A stretch of DNA of 35,746 nucleotides from a virus (Duplodnaviria; Heunggongvirae; Uroviricota; Caudoviricetes), in the IMG/VR virus record IMGVR_UViG_2563366879_000004, positions 1 to 35,746 of that record; one strand, 5' to 3'. A program made the position numbers and the translations under genes. How positions within the stretch are numbered: the first letter of the stretch is position 1; each line of letters opens with the position of its first letter. The notes beneath the pieces were generated by a model. The model saw only the letters and a list, made by a program, of their open reading frames with translations, was not told the origin of the DNA and did no database searches. Below are positions 1,363 through 30,566 of the stretch, in pieces.

Positions 1363-1446
1363 TTAATTTCGATTATTTTTCCCGGATGGAAAATTCTTAG
1401 AAACCGATCACATACAGCTGCATTTATTAAGGTTATCATCCGTTTC

Positions 1447-1533
1447 GCTGAAAAACATAACCCATAAAATGCTAGCTGTACCAGGAACCACCTCCTTAGC
1501 CTGTGTAATCTCCCTTACACGGGCTTATTTTTT
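1447..1533 (+). ncRNA. cyaR: CyaR (RyeE) Hfq-dependent sRNA; its 3' terminator hairpin contains the prophage att core
   Basis: Sequence gctgaaaaacataacccataaaatgctagctgtaccaggaaccacctccttagcctgtgtaatctcccttacacgggcttatttttt matches the recalled CyaR sequence; 10-bp stem (gcctgtgtaa / ttacacgggc with one G-U) plus U-run at the 3' end; located between yegQ and ogr as in E. coli. Confidence 0.8.
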
Positions 1534-22290: not shown

Positions 22291-24063
22291 ATGACCATCA
22301 CCACAGACACCACTCTTTTACACGACCCGCGTCGTCAGGCGGCGCTGCTGTACTGGCAGGGGTTTTCCGTGCCGCAGATTGCCGCCATGTTGCAGATGAA
22401 ACGCCCGACGGTGCAGAGCTGGAAACAGCGCGACGGCTGGGACAGCGTTGCCCCCATCAGCCGTGTCGAAATGAGTCTGGAAGCGCGGCTGACCCAGCTC
22501 ATCATCAAACCGCAGAAAACCGGCGGTGACTTCAAGGAAATTGACCTGCTGGGACGCCAGATTGAACGACTGGCACGGGTCAACCGCTACAGCCAGACCG
22601 GCAACGAGGCAGACCTTAATCCGAACGTCGCTAACCGCAACAAAGGCGGGCGTCGCAAACCGAAAAAGAATTTTTTCAGTGACGAGGCCATCGAAAAGCT
22701 GGAGCAGATTTTCTTTGAGCAGTCTTTCGACTATCAGTTGCACTGGTATCGTGCCGGGCTTGAGCACCGCATCCGCGATATCCTGAAATCCCGCCAGATT
22801 GGCGCGACGTTTTATTTTTCCCGCGAGGCGCTGCTGCGCGCCCTGAAAACCGGCCATAACCAGATTTTTCTGTCGGCCAGTAAAACGCAGGCGTATGTGT
22901 TCCGTGAATACATCATCGCCTTTGCCCGGCTGGTTGACGTTGACCTGACCGGTGACCCGATTGTCCTGGGCAATAACGGCGCAAAACTGATTTTTCTCGG
23001 CACCAACTCCAACACCGCACAGAGCCATAACGGCGACCTGTACGTCGACGAGATTTTCTGGATCCCGAATTTTCAGGTACTGCGTAAGGTGGCATCTGGT
23101 ATGGCCTCACAGAGTCACCTGCGCTCGACCTATTTCTCCACCCCGTCCACGCTGGCGCACGACGCCTACCCGTTCTGGTCGGGTGAACTGTTTAACCGGG
23201 GACGCGCCAGCGCCGCCGAACGCGTGGAAATCGACGTCAGTCATAACGCCCTTGCCGGTGGGCTTCTCTGTGCGGACGGCCAGTGGCGACAGATTGTCAC
23301 CATTGAGGACGCCCTGAAAGGCGGCTGCACGCTGTTCGACATTGAGCAGCTCAAACGCGAAAACAGCGCCGACGATTTTAAAAACCTGTTCATGTGTGAA
23401 TTTGTTGACGACAAGGCATCGGTGTTCCCGTTCGAGGAGCTGCAACGCTGCATGGTCGACACGCTGGAAGAATGGGAAGACTATGCGCCGTTTGCCGCCA
23501 ATCCGTTCGGCTCCCGCCCGGTATGGATTGGTTACGACCCGTCACACCGTGGCGACAGCGCCGGATGCGTGGTACTGGCACCGCCGGTGGTGGCCGGTGG
23601 CAAATTCAGGATACTTGAGCGTCACCAGTGGAAAGGCATGGACTTTGCCACCCAGGCTGAATCCATCCGCAAACTCACCGAAAAATACAACGTCGAATAC
23701 ATCGGAATTGATGCCACCGGCCTCGGTGTCGGCGTGTTCCAGCTCGTGCGCTCGTTCTATCCCGCCGCGCGTGATATCCGCTACACGCCGGAAATGAAAA
23801 CCGCAATGGTGCTCAAGGCAAAAGACGTTATCCGCCGTGGCTGTCTGGAATACGACGTCAGCGCCACCGACATCACCAGCTCGTTTATGGCTATCCGCAA
23901 GACCATGACCAGCAGCGGACGCAGCGCCACGTATGAGGCCAGCCGCAGCGAGGAAGCCAGCCACGCCGACCTCGCCTGGGCGACCATGCACGCCCTGTTA
24001 AATGAGCCACTCACCGCCGGTATCAGCACCCCGCTGACATCCACCATTCTGGAGTTTTACTGA
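22291..24063 (+). CDS. P: Terminase large subunit (ATPase) gpP
   Basis: ATG at 22291 with GAGGT 5 nt upstream gives 590 aa (MTITTDTTLLHD...), P2 gpP length. Confidence 0.9.
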   Translation: MTITTDTTLLHDPRRQAALLYWQGFSVPQIAAMLQMKRPTVQSWKQRDGWDSVAPISRVEMSLEARLTQLIIKPQKTGGDFKEIDLLGRQIERLARVNRYSQTGNEADLNPNVANRNKGGRRKPKKNFFSDEAIEKLEQIFFEQSFDYQLHWYRAGLEHRIRDILKSRQIGATFYFSREALLRALKTGHNQIFLSASKTQAYVFREYIIAFARLVDVDLTGDPIVLGNNGAKLIFLGTNSNTAQSHNGDLYVDEIFWIPNFQVLRKVASGMASQSHLRSTYFSTPSTLAHDAYPFWSGELFNRGRASAAERVEIDVSHNALAGGLLCADGQWRQIVTIEDALKGGCTLFDIEQLKRENSADDFKNLFMCEFVDDKASVFPFEELQRCMVDTLEEWEDYAPFAANPFGSRPVWIGYDPSHRGDSAGCVVLAPPVVAGGKFRILERHQWKGMDFATQAESIRKLTEKYNVEYIGIDATGLGVGVFQLVRSFYPAARDIRYTPEMKTAMVLKAKDVIRRGCLEYDVSATDITSSFMAIRKTMTSSGRSATYEASRSEEASHADLAWATMHALLNEPLTAGISTPLTSTILEFY

Positions 24064-25097
24064 TGAGCAAGAAAAAAGGGAAAACACAGCAACCTGCGGC
24101 AAAAAAAATGACCGCCAGCGCCCCGAAAATGGAGGCATTCACCTTTGGTGAGCCAGTGCCGGTACTCGACCGCCGTGACATTCTGGATTACGTCGAATGC
24201 ATCAGTAACGGCAGATGGTATGAGCCACCGGTCAGCTTTACCGGTCTGGCAAAAAGCCTGCGTGCTGCCGTGCATCACAGCTCACCGATTTACGTCAAAC
24301 GTAATATTCTGGCTTCAACGTTTATCCCGCACCCGTGGCTTTCCCAGCAGGATTTCAGCCGCTTTGTGCTGGATTTTCTGGTGTTCGGTAATGCGTTTCT
24401 GGAAAAGCGTTACAGCCCCACCGGTAAGGTCATCAGACTGGAAACCTCACCGGCAAAATATACCCGCCGTGGCGTGGAGGAGGATGTTTACTGGTGGGTG
24501 CCGTCCTTCAACGAGCCGACAGCCTTCGCGCCCGGTTCCGTGTTTCACCTGCTGGAGCCCGATATTAATCAGGAGCTGTACGGCCTGCCGGAATATCTCA
24601 GCGCCCTTAACTCTGCCTGGCTGAATGAGTCGGCCACGCTGTTCCGCCGCAAGTATTACGAAAACGGCGCACATGCCGGATACATCATGTACGTTACCGA
24701 TGCCGTGCAGGATCGCAACGATATCGAAATGCTTCGCGAAAACATGGTTAAGTCGAAAGGCCGCAATAACTTTAAAAATCTGTTTCTCTATGCCCCGCAG
24801 GGGAAAGCCGACGGCATTAAAATTATCCCCCTCAGTGAAGTGGCAACGAAGGACGATTTTTTTAATATCAAAAAATCCAGCGCCGCTGACCTGCTGGACG
24901 CGCACCGCATCCCCTTTCAGTTGATGGGCGGCAAGCCGGAGAACGTCGGGTCGCTGGGTGATATTGAGAAAGTGGCAAAGGTCTTTGTCCGCAATGAGCT
25001 TATCCCGTTACAGGACAGGATTCGGGAAATAAACGGCTGGCTCGGTCAGGAGGTCATCCGCTTTAAAAACTACTCACTGGACACAGACAACGGCTGA
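24063..25097 (+). CDS. Q: Portal protein gpQ
   Basis: 344-aa ORF; TGATG overlap with the P stop; P2 gpQ length. Confidence 0.9.
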   Translation: MSKKKGKTQQPAAKKMTASAPKMEAFTFGEPVPVLDRRDILDYVECISNGRWYEPPVSFTGLAKSLRAAVHHSSPIYVKRNILASTFIPHPWLSQQDFSRFVLDFLVFGNAFLEKRYSPTGKVIRLETSPAKYTRRGVEEDVYWWVPSFNEPTAFAPGSVFHLLEPDINQELYGLPEYLSALNSAWLNESATLFRRKYYENGAHAGYIMYVTDAVQDRNDIEMLRENMVKSKGRNNFKNLFLYAPQGKADGIKIIPLSEVATKDDFFNIKKSSAADLLDAHRIPFQLMGGKPENVGSLGDIEKVAKVFVRNELIPLQDRIREINGWLGQEVIRFKNYSLDTDNG

Positions 25098-25434: not shown

Positions 25435-26235
25435 CTATTTCATCAGTCCTATAAAAGCTGCTGTCATGCTACCCAATGCACCAATAGCAGCAAATAACGT
25501 TGCCCAAAACATGCTTTTTTGGCTACGAATATTCTCATTATATCGTTGTTTTTCATTATTGAAGTGATTTAACGTATTAATTGCTTTTCCGGTGGGCTTA
25601 TAACCATCTCGAGTCTTTGAAATGTCCCCACTCTCTACAAGGGAATCCAGACATAAGCGAAGTTCTTTTATGAGTCGAGAATAATCATCATGGTAGATCC
25701 ATAAACGTCCTGCCACATCATTCATAATTAGAGTCTCACTGAATGGTTTTTCCCCTTGTTGCTCTCGATAAATTCTGACAATTGCAGCCAATACCGTCAT
25801 TACATCAGTTATCTCCTGCTTGCGTTGTCGATACAAATACTTCTCACGACTTAGCTTTTTATTTTGACGATCCGCTATTCTTCTAAATCTAAGTACATTA
25901 AAATAAGATAAATCATCCAATGAGTCAAACTTCAATTCATGCGCATGATAATAATAAATTCCAGAAAAGGAATTTGATGTAAGTCGTTCTGGTTTAAGAA
26001 TTGTATCAATATTGAAAGTTTTATTCTGATGATTCCACTTCTTAACCTTTATAATTCCGTTTGAATAACTATCAAAAAGATAGTCATTACCCTCGTCATC
26101 CTTAATGTAAACGGAATACATATCGTAATGAATGGCACTCTCATACATTAAACTAATTTTGCCATTTTCAGGGATCTTCTTTGACTCAAAAACTTTCAGA
26201 AACTTTACAACATCAACTTTATTTTTATGCCTCAT
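25435..26235 (-). CDS. Hypothetical 266-aa protein with a single C-terminal transmembrane anchor; candidate effector of the adjacent RT system
   Basis: AT-rich ORF 165 nt downstream of the RT gene on the same strand; C-terminus MFWATLFAAIGALGSMTAAFIGLMK is strongly hydrophobic; no recognised catalytic motif. Confidence 0.6.
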   Translation of the reverse strand: MRHKNKVDVVKFLKVFESKKIPENGKISLMYESAIHYDMYSVYIKDDEGNDYLFDSYSNGIIKVKKWNHQNKTFNIDTILKPERLTSNSFSGIYYYHAHELKFDSLDDLSYFNVLRFRRIADRQNKKLSREKYLYRQRKQEITDVMTVLAAIVRIYREQQGEKPFSETLIMNDVAGRLWIYHDDYSRLIKELRLCLDSLVESGDISKTRDGYKPTGKAINTLNHFNNEKQRYNENIRSQKSMFWATLFAAIGALGSMTAAFIGLMK

Positions 26236-26400: not shown

Positions 26401-27351
26401 TTAAACCGATGTATTTGCTTTCAACGTCAATACCTTCGATCTATAACGTTTTTCAATAACCCCCATTGAATATAAACGACCAAATAATTTCTTTGCTGTT
26501 CTTGTATCTTTAGCTTGTTCTACATCTTTTATTATTTTCCAAAGCTCTATTTCTCTAGCCATAAGATAATGCTGTTCGTTCCTAACCTTTAAGCTATCCC
26601 CAAATACTATCACTCCTGTCACTAGTTTAGGCTTATCCCCAGCATATAATTTCGTTTTAGTTGGATGCATAACGTGTCCATGCTTATTAATAATCTTACG
26701 AATCACGCTGCAAAACAATCGATTTACATTATCTCCAGAAAAAGTAAGATCATCGACATAAACTGTCATTTTCACACGAAACTTCTCACAAAGTTGATTC
26801 ATTTCATCAAACATTCTGGAATTTGCAAAATATGCTAATGGCATACTAATCCGACTACCCGTTGGCAATCGTTCATGACAGGTACATATATGAGATAAAA
26901 TATCAGCCACATCTGGCGACATTTTCATTATTGAGAAAAAGAAAGAAAATATCATTTCTCTTGTTGTTGACGGAAAAAAAGATCTAATATCTGTAGTCAT
27001 CAACTTCTGATGATTGAGATGTGCTTTAGCATTTGTTATGTTAGAGCAACTTTTTTTACCAGAGTGTAAATATTCGGGCATAGCTATACGCAATAATAGA
27101 CTCGCAATACGTGTATGCACTACATCTAATTTTTCTAAAGGCTTTTGTATTTTCCGTATTTTATTTTTTTTAGAAAGCTGTTCAAAAATAGAGTAATTAC
27201 CCTCATCCCTTTTCAAAACTGATAGGTCATTGATACTAACGCAGAGCAAGCTAGCCAACTTTTTTTTACTTTTAAGTTTATAAAGTGGCGAATCCGTAAT
27301 AGGATAAGATTTATTTTTAGTTGAAACCTTCAGCTTAATCCTTTTTTTCAT
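26401..27351 (-). CDS. Retron-type reverse transcriptase (316 aa)
   Basis: RT motifs in order: NAKAH (retron NAxxH), DIRSFFPS, LPTGSRISMPLAYF (LPxG...SxP), YVDD catalytic box (VYVDDLTFS), and KLVTGVIV (retron VTG motif); size typical of retron RTs; very AT-rich. Confidence 0.8.
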   Translation of the reverse strand: MKKRIKLKVSTKNKSYPITDSPLYKLKSKKKLASLLCVSINDLSVLKRDEGNYSIFEQLSKKNKIRKIQKPLEKLDVVHTRIASLLLRIAMPEYLHSGKKSCSNITNAKAHLNHQKLMTTDIRSFFPSTTREMIFSFFFSIMKMSPDVADILSHICTCHERLPTGSRISMPLAYFANSRMFDEMNQLCEKFRVKMTVYVDDLTFSGDNVNRLFCSVIRKIINKHGHVMHPTKTKLYAGDKPKLVTGVIVFGDSLKVRNEQHYLMAREIELWKIIKDVEQAKDTRTAKKLFGRLYSMGVIEKRYRSKVLTLKANTSV

Positions 27352-27637
27352 TTCTTTTACTTACCCACTCTAGTATATCCAGAACTTTCCCTGCCAGTTT
27401 TAAACGTAAACTTTTGGATAATCGTCCTTGTGTCCCTAATGATTCTGAAAAAAAGACCAAAGAGGATACTGGCATGTCGAAATGGGAAGCATAACGCTGC
27501 AAAATATCAATCGACGGCACCCATAGTCCGCTTTCAATCTCTACTATTCTGCTTTTTGGAATACCTAAAGATGATGATAAGTCAACTATTGATTCTTTAT
27601 GGTATTGCCTTATTAAACGAAGGGCTTTATGCAACAT
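27335..27637 (-). CDS. XRE-family helix-turn-helix protein (about 100 aa) overlapping the RT start
   Basis: HTH-like segment IVDLSSSLGIPKSRIVEIESG; preferred ATG at 27637 has GGAG 6 nt upstream (the supplied ORF starts at 27649); 3' end overlaps the RT start by 17 nt, suggesting translational coupling. Confidence 0.65.
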   Translation of the reverse strand: MLHKALRLIRQYHKESIVDLSSSLGIPKSRIVEIESGLWVPSIDILQRYASHFDMPVSSLVFFSESLGTQGRLSKSLRLKLAGKVLDILEWVSKRNEKKD

Positions 27638-27673
27638 AGGCAACTCCATCTTGTTGAAACTAGGGAGGACGCA

Positions 27674-27829
27674 TTACTCATCTCCCCCTTCAAAGAAGTC
27701 AACTGCGCGAGTGATCCAATAAAGTAGTCTAATAAGCCACTTAATTACACCCCAAGCGTTAGGAGTCTTCTTTTTCCGGTTTAACTTGTTTTGCGCCTGC
27801 TGTTCGTTGGTTACTTTATCATTTTTCAT
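27674..27829 (-). CDS. Possible 51-aa peptide with basic N-terminus and one hydrophobic helix (MKNDKV...WGVIKWLIRLLYWITRAV...)
   Basis: ATG at 27829 preceded by AAGGAG at 6-nt spacing; lies within the supplied 97-aa ORF 27674..27967; could instead be non-coding leader or ncRNA sequence. Confidence 0.35.
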   Translation of the reverse strand: MKNDKVTNEQQAQNKLNRKKKTPNAWGVIKWLIRLLYWITRAVDFFEGGDE

Positions 27830-28100
27830 GATCTGCTCCTTATGTCCACGGTGTGCAAACGATATGTCTGCTCCAGCACCATGGCTCGCCCTCATAAGGA
27901 TGAGATTGAACAGCACCAGCTCCCTGCTCCACGAACCCTTTGTCGCCCAAAGGGTTCGAATACCCATACGCTATGCCGCGTGAATCAGAGACTCCTGTCG
28001 CTGACAGAGGCGTTGCGCGGGGTAAATGTTAGAAAGCATTAGCTTTCCACGGGCAATAAATACCCAATTGATGGCGATTTATCTCACTAACTAACCAATG
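27830..28100 (-). ncRNA. Candidate structured leader or retron msr/msd-like ncRNA upstream of the RT operon (boundaries uncertain)
   Basis: Perfect 11-bp stem cgaaccctttg/caaagggttcg (27932-27958), 8-bp stem 28030-28049, imperfect stem 27992-28010, direct repeats of cgtgga; retron ncRNAs are normally encoded just upstream of the RT operon. The a1/a2 repeats could not be confirmed by eye. Confidence 0.3.
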
Positions 28101-28271
28101 ATTGAATCATACCAAGTAAACCGTTGTATTTGATCTCTCCTTATATAATTTTTTGTTATTAATAAATATAATTAAATAACAAAATGAAATAAAACTAATC
28201 TTCAACCGTCTCATCACAAGAAATATCAACAAATCAAGAATATCGTTTGATTATCTAGTCTTTCCAATTCA

Positions 28272-30566
28272 TTAAAATAAAAACAATGCTTCATCTTCAA
28301 TTCCCGGCCAAACATCAGCAACCGGATACGTGAATTTTTTCCCGTCATAATTTACAGTTGCTCCACGCGCCAGCGCCTCAAGTTCCCATCGCTGCGGCCT
28401 GATACCGTTCTGAGCAAGGTCAACGCGGATACGGGTAATTTGCATTCGTTCTGACCGGGTCAGTCTGGCCGATGGCGCTATTTCATGTGGTTTTAACGGT
28501 TTTCCGTTTCTTTGCTGGCGGTTTGGTCTTCTCAGTCCGTGTTTTAATGCCCCCCTGAGCGCCCTCACGACCTCCGGGTCACTCCATTCGATGACACCGT
28601 CATCAACCAGATTAAGCACTGCTGCGGCGTTCTCAGTAGGTGTGGGAGCCGGTAACGAAGTATCACCACCGGTGAGCTTTCCACAGTTATTGACAGGACT
28701 CCGAGGCGCGGCGATGCCGCTTTTTAAAGTCAAAGGCTCAACGACCGGAACTTTCGGAACAATGCGCCAGTCCGTCGTTCTGGTGATATGAATATGACGC
28801 GCGCCGAGATGCGGTGCGTAAATGCCGACCACTCTCTCGACCTCTTCCTCGTACTCGTTAACGTCATCCGACGGGCTACGGGCGACTCTGACAGTCTGAC
28901 AATCGCGCGGAACATTTGCCCCACCCTGCGCGCTGATATACAACGCAAAATCACCTCTGTCTGCGGCGGCGCGTGCAGCCTCGACGCGCTCGTCAAACTC
29001 ATCAGCAATGCTGACGCCGCGAGGCAATTTGCGTAGTTCACGGTAAGCCCCCATTGTCGGCAGACCAACCGTTTTAAATTGCGGAATGCGCCACGTTGAC
29101 GCCCATGCGGTAACAGCCGCAGCAGTATCTTTCAGCGGCCTGCCGGTATCGTTATCGAGCTGACCATCCAGTGCATAGCCATCGATGTTTTTTGAGATGT
29201 ATTTCGCGATATATCCCGCAGCACCGCCCCGGTTAAGGTGTTTTGCCTGAAAACGGTTTCGCGCGGCTCCTCTTTCGTCGCCATCCTCTTTGAGCGCATA
29301 GCGACGCATGATTTCGATAATCTGGTTACGCTGGCGTGGATTACAAAAAAGCATCATATGCCAGTGCGGCGTTCCGTCGTGGTGTGGCTCGACGACACGC
29401 AAACCGTAGACCTGTAAATCATTATCCTTGAATGCCGTGCGCATCAGGCTCCAGATGCGGCAGAGATAACGCTGCGCATCCTTTGGATTAAATGCCTCAT
29501 CGTTCCAGCCGTGATTAAGCTGAACGGTTTTACTTTCGCCTTTTCTGACCTGACGAGTCGGGTGATACTTTGACGGCGCGGTCAGCGTGATAAACATCCC
29601 CACATCACCCTCTGCGGCGGCGTAACGCTCAATACCGGCAATGGTGTTCATCAGCTCCATCCGGCGAATTTCAGGATTAGAAATACTGCCCATCACCTTA
29701 CTGATAAGGTCGATGCGCTCGCCGGTTTCCCTGTTTTCAAGGTCACACGATTTAAGAAATTCCAGATTTGCCTGGCGGCGCGCACGCACATCACGAATGG
29801 CGTGTTTACTGGCATAAGGAGAACGGTCTTTATTGACCTCCCCGACAGCTATCAGTAACGCTTCATGCCAGCGCATACGCTGGCCTTTAAGCTGATGAGT
29901 CCACCACTCATCGTTAAACAGACGGGCAATGGCAGAATATGCCTGCCTCGTGGTTATCTGTCCTTTACGGTATTTTTTCCAGTAGAGCGGGGAAATATTG
30001 AAAGCACGTGCAGCGCCAGCAACATGACCATACAGGTGAGCCTGCGCCTCATCCGTAAACAGTGATTCTTTTTCGCCATGCGCATCCACCCAGGCATCGC
30101 TGAGTTCCTCATACATCATGAAAAGCTGCGATGAGATACGGGCAGCAAACTTTTTCAGCTCCTTGTCATTCATTCCAGGCAGGCGCGCATAGTGGTCACG
30201 CTCTGCCAGAAACAGCAACGACGCGTCGGTGTTCATTTCATTGCGCTGATTAACGCGCTCAATGCGCGGCCATAAACGACGCTGAAAAGTGGATGTGAGG
30301 AAATAAAACCCGTGCAACGGGCTTTTATTGCGCCGGATGTAGTCATAGCGTGAAGTAAACAGCGAGCGCAAAAAGTAAGGCAGGCGGTTAATCGTGGATA
30401 AAACACCTTGCACCTGACGCATCTCGTCACGTGTAAGGGGTCTTTCGCGCCCGACAGCCTCGCGTGGCGCATTCCATGCATAAGCACCGGTAAACGCCTT
30501 ACCGGTGCCTGCGGCAAACGCAGACGGAGGTACGCAGGTGTATTGCTCCTGGAAAGAATGACTCAT
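28272..30566 (-). CDS. A: Replication initiation protein gpA (rolling-circle nickase)
   Basis: 764-aa ORF (recalled P2 gpA about 761 aa); N-terminal region resembles the recalled gpA sequence; position between orf83-side genes and the cos-proximal hotspot. Confidence 0.88.
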   Translation of the reverse strand: MSHSFQEQYTCVPPSAFAAGTGKAFTGAYAWNAPREAVGRERPLTRDEMRQVQGVLSTINRLPYFLRSLFTSRYDYIRRNKSPLHGFYFLTSTFQRRLWPRIERVNQRNEMNTDASLLFLAERDHYARLPGMNDKELKKFAARISSQLFMMYEELSDAWVDAHGEKESLFTDEAQAHLYGHVAGAARAFNISPLYWKKYRKGQITTRQAYSAIARLFNDEWWTHQLKGQRMRWHEALLIAVGEVNKDRSPYASKHAIRDVRARRQANLEFLKSCDLENRETGERIDLISKVMGSISNPEIRRMELMNTIAGIERYAAAEGDVGMFITLTAPSKYHPTRQVRKGESKTVQLNHGWNDEAFNPKDAQRYLCRIWSLMRTAFKDNDLQVYGLRVVEPHHDGTPHWHMMLFCNPRQRNQIIEIMRRYALKEDGDERGAARNRFQAKHLNRGGAAGYIAKYISKNIDGYALDGQLDNDTGRPLKDTAAAVTAWASTWRIPQFKTVGLPTMGAYRELRKLPRGVSIADEFDERVEAARAAADRGDFALYISAQGGANVPRDCQTVRVARSPSDDVNEYEEEVERVVGIYAPHLGARHIHITRTTDWRIVPKVPVVEPLTLKSGIAAPRSPVNNCGKLTGGDTSLPAPTPTENAAAVLNLVDDGVIEWSDPEVVRALRGALKHGLRRPNRQQRNGKPLKPHEIAPSARLTRSERMQITRIRVDLAQNGIRPQRWELEALARGATVNYDGKKFTYPVADVWPGIEDEALFLF

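What the first reader, a model, noticed from the sequence alone, without database searches (positions are those of the whole stretch)
27830..28100. Highly structured leader upstream of the RT operon: candidate msr/msd
Seen in sequence (minus-strand RNA): a perfect 11-bp stem with a 5-nt loop (27932-27958); an 8-bp stem with one G-U pair (28030-28049); an imperfect stem at 27992-28010; and three direct copies of cgtgga. None is followed by a U-run, so they are unlikely to be intrinsic terminators. Established: retron ncRNAs lie immediately upstream of the RT operon and contain a long msd stem-loop flanked by inverted repeats a1/a2. Inference: this leader may encode the msr/msd template; I could not identify a1/a2 by eye, so the call is tentative.
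Basis: partly seen in the sequence, partly recalled or inferred. Interest (0 to 1): 0.6.

Follow-up and report, generated by a model that had tools for sequence, protein, structure and literature searches.

The report
Type VI retron template-and-switch RNA leader
The structured leader is the non-coding front half of a Type VI retron "hybrid RNA": it most likely holds the reverse-transcription template and a translational switch for a small toxin gene, in a P2-like prophage of E. coli, and it belongs to a kind of system described in 2025-2026 preprints.

Summary
The stems are at the stated coordinates, and the region folds far better than shuffled sequence (z -3.7; z -4.7 with flanks). The genes downstream on the minus strand are a 51-aa small protein (SP, 27829-27674), an HTH protein and a reverse transcriptase. 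These match the PADLOC models HTH_VI and RT_VI, so this is a Type VI retron lying between gpA and the portal gene of a P2-like prophage.

A nucleotide profile of the leader plus SP gene finds the same RNA in 64 loci. One of them matches every published landmark of Retron-Vpa2. Across 34 non-redundant homologues the proposed helices covary strongly.

A conserved anti-SD sequesters the SP ribosome site. A direct repeat, GGGCGA, sits in the hairpin loop and in the switch bulge, and it covaries between the two sites.

The "candidate msr/msd" reading is supported, but in the Type VI hybrid-RNA form.

This is a new member of a known kind. Two additions may be new: a 5' element complementary to both repeats, and a pseudoknotted closing helix.

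The parts
28106..28114 (-). Predicted extended -10 promoter element (TGgTATGAT); the transcript would start near 28099
   Evidence: TGnTATGAT is kept in all close relatives. The T-A-n-n-n-T columns are at least 90% conserved in the 34-sequence alignment (cols 8, 9, 13). Sequence conservation begins just downstream. The simple -35/-10 scan does not call it. Inferred, not mapped.
28081..28087 (-). 5' strand of closing helix H0 (GUGAGAU); pairs with 27906-27900
   Evidence: 80.3% of cells paired against 32-62% when the partner is slid. U-A<->G-C occurs 17/16 and A-U<->G-C 20/9. Covariation score 0.369 against at most 0.13. H0 crosses H9 and IR1/IR2, so it is a pseudoknot or an alternative conformer.
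28073..28077 (-). 5' element UCGCC, complementary to both GGCGA repeats
   Evidence: It covaries with the repeats: UCACC<->GGUGA, UCGUC<->GACGA in the Vpa2-like locus, UUCGCU<->AGCGAA. Own-sequence complementarity exceeds permuted pairings (0/5000 for repeat 1, 9/5000 for repeat 2). 75.5% paired against 23-50% slid.
28051..28065 (-). Stem-loop SLa (GGGUA/UGCCC)
   Evidence: helix 3: 97.6% paired, 4 of 5 pairs changed on both sides. Independently predicted by RNAalifold.
28030..28049 (-).
   Evidence: helix 4: 88.8% paired, 5 pairs with double changes, outermost pair not conserved. Predicted by RNAalifold.
27961..28024 (-). Long stem-loop with conserved base and variable interior; predicted main body of the msd template.
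   Evidence: Base helices are 77% and 64% paired. It folds as one closed stem-loop in 33 of 34 homologues although its length ranges from 43 to 115 nt and its sequence varies. It corresponds by position to the Vpa2 long stem-loop covered by the 63-nt msDNA.
27932..27958 (-). Perfect 11-bp hairpin with loop GGCGA; predicted 3' end of the template, equal to the 5' stem-loop of the msDNA. Repeat 1 (GGGCGA) is at 27948-27943.
   Evidence: helix 7: 91.6% paired, 9 of 9 pairs with double changes. In Vpa2 the repeat-bearing 5' stem-loop of the msDNA is required to switch on SP translation.
27920..27931 (-). IR1 (UGGAGCAGGGAG); pairs with IR2 at 27667-27655
   Evidence: MFE. helix 9: 82.7% paired, 9 of 12 pairs with double changes. 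The GGGG/CCCC core is also predicted by RNAalifold.
27908..27915 (-). 5' strand of H9 (UGCUGUUC); pairs with codons 9-11 of SP at 27805-27798
   Evidence: helix 10: 98.9% paired, 8 of 8 pairs with double changes. Predicted by RNAalifold.
27900..27906 (-). 3' strand of H0 (AUCUCAU)
27893..27900 (-). Anti-SD (UCCUUAUG); pairs with CAUAAGGA at 27844-27837
   Evidence: helix 12: 75.8% paired, 7 of 7 pairs with double changes. In single-sequence MFE folds of this arm, 30 of 34 homologues pair the SD window with this segment. In the window the paired state is 0.3 kcal/mol above the MFE, with pair probability about 0.5.
27886..27891 (-). Repeat 2 (GGGCGA), in an 8-nt bulge between the anti-SD helix and the next hairpin
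   Evidence: It is identical to repeat 1 within each genome while differing between lineages: GGACGAA, GAGGCGA, UGGUGAC/U, AGCGAAG.
27846..27884 (-). Switch hairpin (CCAUGGUG...CACCGUGG with an inner GCAGAC/GUUUGC helix)
   Evidence: Compensatory changes in close relatives. helices 13-14: 79% and 75% paired.
27836..27841 (-). Shine-Dalgarno AAGGAG of the SP gene
   Evidence: It lies 6 nt before the ATG and is conserved.
27674..27829 (-). SP gene, 51 aa, predicted toxic effector (stop codon included)
   Evidence: An ORF of 47-55 aa sits at the aligned ATG in all 34 homologues, and the in-frame upstream extension is not conserved. BLASTP to the Vpa2-like SP gives E 5e-7 with a shared W..R...YW...F(E/D)GGD tail. 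Matches phrog_15287 at 1e-34.
27668..27673 (-). 3' strand of H11 (UGCGUC); pairs with 27797-27792 and closes the SP coding arm
   Evidence: helix 16: 96% paired, 6 of 6 pairs with double changes. Predicted by RNAalifold.
27655..27667 (-). IR2 (CUCCCUAGUUUCA), non-coding, just after the SP stop codon
   Evidence: Nearly invariant in relatives although non-coding. Pairing statistics.
27335..27649 (-). HTH gene. The probable true start is ATG 27637 (M5), with SD GGAG at 27647-27644.
   Evidence: PADLOC HTH_VI 2.5e-31, aligned from residue 5. The Vpa2-like HTH aligns from M5 at 47% identity.
26401..27351 (-). Retron reverse transcriptase, 316 aa
   Evidence: PADLOC RT_VI 1.8e-105 over 1-278/279, next best RT_III-A at 1.9e-44. 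Pfam RVT_1. YVDD, NAKAH and LVTG motifs are read in the translation.

Best explanation
The interval 27830-28100 (minus strand) is the non-coding 5' portion of the hybrid RNA (hyRNA) of a Type VI retron. The retron is carried as cargo between gene A and the portal gene of a P2-like prophage.

Anatomy (steps 1 and 2 are shown here by sequence, homology and covariation):

1. One transcript is predicted to start near 28099 and run to about 27640. In order it contains two small conserved stem-loops, then a long stem-loop of variable sequence, then the perfect 11-bp hairpin. After these come a densely paired junction strand, a switch that hides the ribosome-binding site of a 51-aa protein (SP), the SP coding sequence, and a 3' inverted repeat that folds back onto the junction.
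2. The long stem-loop plus the 11-bp hairpin (28024-27932) are the counterpart of the template that Retron-Vpa2 copies into an 86-nt msDNA.

Mechanism (steps 3 and 4 are inferred by homology to the Vpa2 experiments):

3. [quoted passage not shown] HTH holds reverse transcription down, host nucleases remove the little msDNA that is made, and the anti-SD (27900-27893) pairs with the SD, so SP is not translated.
4. Phage recombination proteins or RecBCD inhibition let msDNA accumulate. The loop of its 5' hairpin (dTCGCC, the copy of repeat 1) pairs with repeat 2 (GGGCGA, 27891-27886) next to the anti-SD. This frees the SD. SP is made and stops growth of the infected cell.
For: - Gene content: RT_VI 1.8e-105 and HTH_VI 2.5e-31. 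The SP ORF is conserved in all 34 homologues.
- Context: the cassette 28170-26411 recurs at about 82% identity in other P2-like prophages with different neighbouring cargo and in deposited Peduovirus genomes.
- Fold: z -3.7 and -4.7.
- Homology: a nucleotide profile of the close relatives hits the V. parahaemolyticus locus L120 over its full length (E 1.8e-18). L120 matches the published Vpa2 landmarks: a 55-aa SP with K15, I39, F43 and F45, and HTH R7. Iterated searching finds 64 loci.
- Covariation on an unbiased MAFFT alignment of 34 sequences: 82.1% of cells paired against 42-46% for slid partners, 480 doubly changed cells against 99-179, and 0 of 500 shuffles as high. RNAalifold independently recovers SLa, SLb, the 11-bp hairpin, H9, H11 and the IR core.
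- SD sequestration: predicted in 30 of 34 single-sequence folds and near-isoenergetic in the window.
- The direct repeat covaries between its two sites.
- The variable long hairpin is closed in 33 of 34 homologues.
- Published mechanism and anatomy.
Against: - Nothing has been measured for this locus: no transcript ends, no msDNA, no toxicity, no defence.
- The priming nucleotide cannot be assigned. No conserved G follows either candidate a1-like strand.
- The related Type VI retron Sen3 works differently, with constitutive ssDNA and SP and a post-translational HTH antitoxin, so the mechanism is not uniform across the type.
- In the window's own MFE the SD is not sequestered. The sequestered fold is 0.3 kcal/mol higher.
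- The shuffle controls do not remove phylogenetic relatedness.
- I could not verify that L120 encodes exactly WP_069548583.1.
Confidence: 0.8

Rival explanations
1. Same Type VI retron RNA, but operating like Retron-Sen3. ssDNA and SP are made constitutively, HTH neutralises SP as a protein antitoxin, loss of RecBCD activity triggers toxicity, and the RNA structures serve templating and stability rather than msDNA-gated translation.
For: Toro-lab preprint 10.64898/2026.04.27.721009. Sen3 also has an ncRNA, an SP gene embedded in structure, and an IR1-IR2 pair flanking SP, all of which are found here. In Vpa2 too, loss of HTH is toxic.
Against: - The SP here is 51 aa and aligns with the 55-aa Vpa2 SP, not with the 79-aa cl2075 type.
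- The variable stem-loop is 64 nt, not about 166 nt.
- The anti-SD and the paired repeats of the Vpa2-type switch are conserved and covary.
- The E. coli Type VI retron tested by Zhang et al. (Eco12) gave no basal msDNA.
Confidence: 0.13
2. A canonical retron msr/msd: a1/a2 flank a compact ncRNA, a branching G primes an abundant 2'-5' branched msDNA, and that msDNA acts as antitoxin.
For: A covarying short helix (28087-28081 / 27906-27900) does enclose the stem-loops, in the manner of a1/a2. An invariant G (28083) lies about 17 nt from the predicted 5' end.
Against: - SP and HTH genes separate the RNA from the RT.
- The strongest inverted repeat wraps around the SP ORF.
- There is no Rfam hit even at E up to 10.
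- No Type VI retron of this lineage tested gave abundant basal msDNA, and in Vpa2 the msDNA activates rather than neutralises the toxin.
- If synthesis started next to 27906, the product would be about 25 nt longer at its 5' end than the Vpa2 product implies.
Confidence: 0.04
3. The leader is only a cis-regulatory 5' UTR of a small toxin mRNA, similar to a type I toxin-antitoxin or hok-like mRNA with 5'-3' fold-back. It is never reverse transcribed, and the neighbouring RT is functionally unrelated.
For: SD sequestration, long-range 5'-3' pairing and a small hydrophobic ORF are all typical of type I toxin mRNAs.
Against: The RNA, SP, HTH and RT co-occur in every homologous locus examined. The homologous hairpins are the mapped template in Vpa2, and RT activity is required there for both defence and SP translation. 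The hypervariable closed stem-loop is typical of an msd.
Confidence: 0.03

Closest known systems
Retron-Vpa2 hybrid RNA (Type VI retron, 'Large' lineage; Zhang et al., bioRxiv 10.1101/2025.10.22.683967)
   Same: - Operon order is ncRNA-SP-HTH-RT.
- The RNA is about 460 nt, against about 470 nt in Vpa2.
- There is full-length nucleotide-profile homology.
- The helices are shared and covary.
- A long stem-loop is followed by a short repeat-bearing hairpin.
- The SD is sequestered.
- Direct repeats sit in the hairpin loop and in the switch bulge.
- A 3' inverted repeat folds back onto the first arm.
- The SP has the conserved hydrophobic tail and the F(E/D)GGD end.
   Different: - RT identity is 52%, HTH 47% and SP 27%.
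- The repeat is GGGCGA rather than GGACGAA.
- The host is E. coli and the carrier a P2-like prophage.
- No experiments exist for this locus.
Retron-Eco12 (E. coli Type VI retron tested as a full operon by Zhang et al.)
   Same: Same host species, same retron type, and described as phylogenetically related to Vpa2. It defends against lambda-vir and gives no detectable basal msDNA.
   Different: No sequence or accession for it is held in the paper or its supplements that I could read. Identity with this locus, or with its 82%-identical E. coli relative (L001), cannot be decided.
Retron-Sen3 and the cl2075 Type VI lineage (Garcia-Rodriguez et al., bioRxiv 10.64898/2026.04.27.721009)
   Same: SP-HTH-RT module, a structured ncRNA within about 280 nt of the SP start, SP RBS sequestration, an IR1-IR2 pair flanking SP, and structure within the SP coding region.
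   Different: Sen3 has a 79-aa SP, an internal stem-loop of about 166 nt, constitutive 112- and 145-nt ssDNA, and post-translational control. The loci at about 45% RT identity (L010, L107-L116) lack a tblastn-detectable homologue of this SP; their lineage was not determined here.
Canonical retron msr-msd (for example Ec86/Eco1)
   Same: An RT-templating structured RNA with a hypervariable msd stem-loop and inverted repeats next to the template start.
   Different: In the canonical form the ncRNA is a separate short RNA next to the RT with a defined branching G, and its abundant msDNA acts as an antitoxin. Here the template is fused to a toxin mRNA, and the msDNA is inferred to be an activator.
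Type I toxin mRNAs with fold-back control (hok/sok-type)
   Same: A small hydrophobic toxin ORF, an occluded SD, and long-range 5'-3' pairing within the mRNA.
   Different: No antisense RNA is evident. The proposed releasing nucleic acid is a cDNA made by a linked RT.

Membership tests
Type VI retron (Mestre et al. 2020 classification; PADLOC models) | RT belonging to the Type VI retron clade | tested here: met
   PADLOC RT_VI 1.8e-105, 350 bits, profile 1-278/279; next best RT_III-A 1.9e-44. YVDD, NAxxH (NAKAH) and VTG motifs are read in the translation.
Type VI retron (Mestre et al. 2020 classification; PADLOC models) | Cro/C1-type HTH gene directly upstream of, or overlapping, the RT gene | tested here: met
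   HTH_VI 2.5e-31. HTH ends at 27335 and RT starts at 27351, an overlap of 17 nt.
Type VI retron (Mestre et al. 2020 classification; PADLOC models) | Small accessory protein (SP) gene upstream of the HTH gene | tested here: met
   51-aa ORF with SD, conserved as a 47-55-aa ORF in 34 of 34 homologues. BLASTP to the Vpa2-like SP gives E 5e-7.
Type VI retron (Mestre et al. 2020 classification; PADLOC models) | RT-dependent ssDNA (msDNA) and anti-phage defence | not testable with these tools
   This needs wet-lab assays. Published only for Vpa2, Sen3 and Eco12.
Type VI hybrid RNA (hyRNA) with msDNA-gated switch (Zhang et al. 2025) | Structured RNA homologous to the Vpa2 hyRNA, spanning the ncRNA and the SP coding sequence | tested here: met
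   nhmmer full-length hit to L120. Covariation: 82.1% paired against 42-46% slid, 0 of 500 shuffles. RNAalifold agrees.
Type VI hybrid RNA (hyRNA) with msDNA-gated switch (Zhang et al. 2025) | SP ribosome-binding site and start codon held in stem-loops | tested here: met
   The anti-SD:SD helix covaries, is present in 30 of 34 MFE folds, and has probability about 0.5 in the window. The AUG lies in the small AUCAU/AUGAU hairpin.
Type VI hybrid RNA (hyRNA) with msDNA-gated switch (Zhang et al. 2025) | Direct repeats of about 7 nt, one in an msd loop and one in a switch loop | tested here: met
   GGGCGA at 27948-27943 and 27891-27886. The two sites covary across the family.
Type VI hybrid RNA (hyRNA) with msDNA-gated switch (Zhang et al. 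2025) | 3' end anneals back to the first arm through inverted repeats | tested here: met
   IR1 27931-27920 / IR2 27667-27655: in the MFE, 82.7% paired, 9 of 12 pairs with double changes.
Type VI hybrid RNA (hyRNA) with msDNA-gated switch (Zhang et al. 2025) | One contiguous, abundant transcript covering the ncRNA and SP | not testable with these tools
   Only indirect support: a single conserved -10 element upstream and no terminator-like site.
Canonical retron msr-msd | a1/a2 inverted repeats flanking the ncRNA | tested here: inconclusive
   Two candidates exist. H0 is a short helix that encloses the stem-loops. IR1/IR2 abuts the predicted template start but encloses the SP ORF. Neither has the canonical layout.
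Canonical retron msr-msd | Conserved branching G immediately 3' of a1 | tested here: inconclusive
   No conserved G follows IR2 or H0. An invariant G (28083) lies inside H0. No assignment is possible from sequence.
Canonical retron msr-msd | ncRNA directly adjacent to the RT gene | tested here: not met
   The SP and HTH genes intervene, about 480 nt.
Canonical retron msr-msd | Match to a curated RNA family | tested here: not met
   No Rfam 15 match at gathering score or at E up to 10. Rfam appears to hold no Type VI model.

The most novel reading that the evidence does not exclude
Beyond the published two-repeat model, the hyRNA carries a third partner. This is a single-stranded 5' element (UCGCC, 28077-28073) that has the same sequence as the msDNA loop and is complementary to both repeats. 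It covaries with them across lineages: UCACC with GGUGA, UCGUC with GACGA in the Vpa2-like locus, and UUCGCU with AGCGAA.

Together with a covarying helix H0 (28087-28081 / 27906-27900) that is pseudoknotted with H9 and IR1/IR2 and abuts the anti-SD, this suggests a three-way competition. The RNA's own 5' element would occupy repeat 1 or repeat 2 at rest, and msDNA (or consumption of the template) would redistribute these pairings to open the ribosome site.

I found no mention of this element in the text of either preprint. I could not see their figures, so it may already be drawn there.
Probability: 0.3. Interest if true: 0.55.

Novelty: new member of a known kind. Interest (0 to 1): 0.35.

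Why it matters
Type VI retrons were the one retron type with no recognised ncRNA and no detectable msDNA until preprints of 2025-2026. This locus shows that the same hybrid template-plus-toxin RNA rides in P2-like prophages of E. coli and Klebsiella. There it sits in the variable cargo site between gene A and the portal gene, so a temperate phage supplies its host with this defence.

For annotation, the practical points are these:
- The leader is non-coding.
- The 97-aa ORF call is an artefact.
- The 51-aa SP gene is real.
- The HTH gene probably starts at M5.

For mechanism, the family-wide covariation of the two repeats supports a sequence-specific interaction centred on those repeats. The possible third, complementary element adds to this. 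Together they give concrete compensatory-mutation experiments.

Tried and rejected
1. Rfam at gathering score and at E up to 10 returned nothing relevant.
2. A 5'-3' pairing CCAUC 28074-28070 / GAUGG 27650-27646 appears in the MFE but is poorly supported (67.7% and 39.7% paired). The conserved UCGCCA there is better explained by complementarity to the repeats.
3. RNAalifold paired GAGAU (28085-28081) with GUUUC after the SP stop. I prefer H0, because its covariation is Watson-Crick (U-A<->G-C) rather than U.G<->G.U.
4. The CGTGGA triple repeat is not above chance and its third copy is not conserved. The same holds for the GGAGCAG triple.
5. The leader is not coding sequence. The 97-aa ORF from 27967 is in frame with SP, and phrog_5826 reflects such annotations, but the extension is closed by stop codons in most homologues.
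6. There are no intrinsic terminators or attenuators.
7. An early impression that the window SP shares K15/I39/F45 with Vpa2 was a numbering coincidence. The BLASTP alignment is offset by 4 residues.
8. I looked for the Retron-Eco12 sequence in the papers and supplements and found none. Cluster names are generic and do not show WP_069548583.1.
9. The 266-aa gene downstream of the RT is not part of the cassette. Relatives carry other genes there.
10. Searches failed because of a one-base coordinate slip of mine. This was corrected.
Full report
**Setting.**
The window is a P2-like prophage next to cyaR (Rfam CyaR at 1445-1530). On the minus strand the gene A replication endonuclease (28272-30566; phrog_91) is followed by the leader under study. 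After the leader come four ORFs and then the portal gene.
- A 51-aa ORF with a strong SD (27829-27674).
- A 104-aa HTH protein (27649-27335).
- A 316-aa reverse transcriptase (27351-26401).
- An unrelated 266-aa ORF.
- The portal gene, on the plus strand (24063-25097).

PADLOC assigns the RT to RT_VI (1.8e-105, full profile) and the HTH to HTH_VI (2.5e-31). Pfam sees only RVT_1 and weak HTH families. This is therefore a Type VI retron.

The segment 28170-26411 recurs at about 82% identity in other E. coli P2-like prophages, at the same site but with different neighbouring cargo. It also recurs at 79-81% in deposited Peduovirus and Klebsiella phage genomes. That delimits the mobile unit as leader + SP + HTH + RT.

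**The observation.**
The 11-bp hairpin is the longest perfect close inverted repeat in the 35.7-kb window. The interval folds at -100 kcal/mol against -82.6 +/- 4.7 for dinucleotide shuffles (z -3.68). With flanks, z is -4.73. There is no terminator-like site and no Rfam match even at E up to 10. The three CGTGGA copies are real but not unusual: 14% of shuffles carry some hexamer three times, and the third copy is absent from close relatives.

**Literature.**
Two preprints describe this kind of RNA.

Zhang et al. (10.1101/2025.10.22.683967) studied Retron-Vpa2 and reported the following.
- A hybrid RNA of about 470 nt contains the msr-msd and the SP coding sequence.
- It has three arms around a central node, a 3' end that anneals back through inverted repeats, and the SP RBS and AUG in stem-loops.
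- A 63-nt msDNA comes from a long stem-loop. It extends to 86 nt by a 23-nt 5' stem-loop when RecBCD is inhibited.
- HTH represses reverse transcription.
- msDNA is needed, and is sufficient in trans, to switch on SP translation.
- A 7-nt direct repeat lies in an msd loop and in a switch loop.

They also tested an E. coli system, Retron-Eco12. It gave no basal msDNA but defended against lambda-vir.

Garcia-Rodriguez et al. (10.64898/2026.04.27.721009) describe Retron-Sen3 of the cl2075 lineage. It has constitutive ssDNA, a 79-aa SP, a stem-loop of about 166 nt, an IR1-IR2 pair flanking SP, and post-translational control. They note that the original classification found no ncRNA for Type VI.

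**Homologues.**
A protein search found RT relatives from 82% identity down to about 47%, in Enterobacterales, Vibrio and other Gammaproteobacteria. I fetched 80 genome loci, 35 viral loci and 4 Vibrio loci. tblastn shows SP-HTH-RT synteny in the close group.

Locus L120 from V. parahaemolyticus has an RT 52% identical to the window's. It matches every published landmark of Vpa2: a 55-aa SP with K15, I39, F43 and F45, and HTH R7. I could not confirm the accession.

A nucleotide profile built from the close relatives' leader + SP region hits L120 over its full length (E 1.8e-18). After iteration, 64 loci are detected. The window's RNA is thus homologous to the Vpa2 hyRNA. Its 51-aa SP aligns with the Vpa2-like SP (E 5e-7) and its HTH aligns at 47% identity. 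This places it with Vpa2 rather than with Sen3.

**Anatomy and covariation.**
In the alignment of 21 close relatives, conservation starts at an extended -10 element (TGnTATGAT, 28114-28106). Conservation then alternates between covarying stems and an invariant block at 27931-27885.

I aligned 34 sequences, all under 94% identical to one another and including the window and L120, with MAFFT and no structural guidance (A2). I then counted pairs for a structure projected from the window.
- 82.1% of cells are paired, against 42-46% when partners are slid by 1-3 columns.
- There are 480 doubly changed cells, against 99-179 for the slid partners.
- The covariation score is 0.43, against 0.10-0.14.
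- None of 500 shuffles reaches any of the five observed measures.

Per-helix results:

| Helix | Coordinates | Cells paired | Pairs changed on both sides |
|---|---|---|---|
| SLa | 28065-28051 | 97.6% | 4 of 5 |
| 11-bp hairpin | 27958-27932 | 91.6% | 9 of 9 |
| H9 (junction to SP codons 9-11) | 27915-27908 with 27805-27798 | 98.9% | 8 of 8 |
| H11 (closes the SP arm) | 27797-27792 with 27673-27668 | 96% | 6 of 6 |
| IR1/IR2 | 27931-27920 with 27667-27655 | 82.7% | 9 of 12 |
| anti-SD:SD | 27900-27893 with 27844-27837 | 75.8% | 7 of 7 |

RNAalifold independently predicts SLa, SLb, the hairpin, H9, H11 and the IR core.

The segment between SLb and the hairpin (28024-27961) varies in sequence and in length (43-115 nt). 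It still folds as one closed stem-loop in 33 of 34 homologues, which is the behaviour of an msd stem.

The SP ORF (47-55 aa) is present at the aligned ATG in all 34. The in-frame 97-aa extension seen in the window is not conserved, so the leader is non-coding.

**The switch.**
I folded each homologue's arm between the H9 strands on its own. In 30 of 34, the SD window pairs with the segment just 5' of repeat 2, leaving that repeat in a 7-8-nt bulge. In the window this state is 0.3 kcal/mol above the MFE, with pair probability about 0.5.

The repeat is GGGCGA at 27948-27943 (closing pair plus loop of the 11-bp hairpin) and at 27891-27886. Across the family the two copies change together: GGACGAA in the Vpa2-like locus, and elsewhere GAGGCGA, UGGUGAC/U and AGCGAAG. 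The own-sequence longest common word averages 6.15 nt, against 4.89 +/- 0.16 for permuted pairings (0 of 5000).

By position, the long stem-loop plus the hairpin (28024-27932, 93 nt) correspond to the 63 + 23-nt Vpa2 msDNA. The predicted cDNA folds into two DNA hairpins, the 5' one presenting TCGCC in its loop.

**Two additions.**
First, GUGAGAU (28087-28081) pairs with AUCUCAU (27906-27900). This helix, H0, is 80.3% paired against 32-62% for slid partners. It shows U-A<->G-C in 17/16 sequences and A-U<->G-C in 20/9. It encloses the stem-loops in the manner of a1/a2 and abuts the anti-SD. It crosses H9 and IR1/IR2, so it is either a pseudoknot or an alternative conformer.

Second, UCGCC (28077-28073), 3 nt after H0, is complementary to both repeats and covaries with them. 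The tests gave 0 of 5000 and 9 of 5000 permutations, and 75.5% paired against 23-50% slid, though with few independent events.

This explains the invariance of 27931-27885: nearly every base is committed to some long-range partner. I do not know whether the preprints' figures already show these two elements. Their text does not mention them.

**Open points.**
- The priming nucleotide cannot be assigned.
- The 5' and 3' ends are predictions.
- The shuffle controls do not remove relatedness.
- Whether this locus or its 82%-identical E. coli relative is Retron-Eco12 cannot be decided, because no sequence is held.

**Verdict.**
The msr/msd inference is supported in the Type VI hybrid-RNA form. The element is a new, or possibly already tested, member of a recently described kind. 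It has moderate specialist interest and offers two testable structural additions.

Noticed in passing
window 25435-26235 (-): A 266-aa ORF directly downstream of the RT, with a hydrophobic C-terminal segment. It has no Pfam, NCBIfam or PADLOC hit but a full-length match to phrog_7611, a family of unknown function. Relatives of the retron carry different genes here, so it is separate cargo in the same P2 variable site, and possibly another defence gene.
   Followed up: partly
window 27674-27967 (-): A 97-aa ORF in frame with SP runs through the structured leader. phrog_5826 (97 positions) matches only through the SP part. The extension is interrupted by stop codons in most homologues, so such annotations are probably over-extended gene calls.
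   Followed up: yes
window 27635-27649 (-): The HTH ORF as listed starts at ATG 27649. Both the HTH_VI profile and the Vpa2-like HTH align from residue 5, and GGAG (27647-27644) sits 6 nt before ATG 27637. The true start is therefore probably M5.
   Followed up: partly
window 1445-1530 (+): CyaR sRNA, 100.7 bits, lies next to the prophage.
   Followed up: no
window 27931-27924, 27875-27868, 27840-27833 (-): GGAGCAG occurs three times: in IR1, in the switch hairpin, and overlapping the SD. It is only partly kept in close relatives and is not above chance.
   Followed up: partly
window 28151-28184: A perfect 10-nt inverted repeat (TTTTGTTATT / AATAACAAAA, 14 nt apart) lies in the AT-rich spacer upstream of the predicted promoter. 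It is not conserved in relatives.
   Followed up: partly
L010, L107-L116: Loci with about 45% RT identity keep HTH-RT synteny and a detectable hyRNA-profile match (about 77-80 bits) but no tblastn-detectable homologue of this SP. They may represent another SP lineage of Type VI retrons carried on prophages.
   Followed up: no
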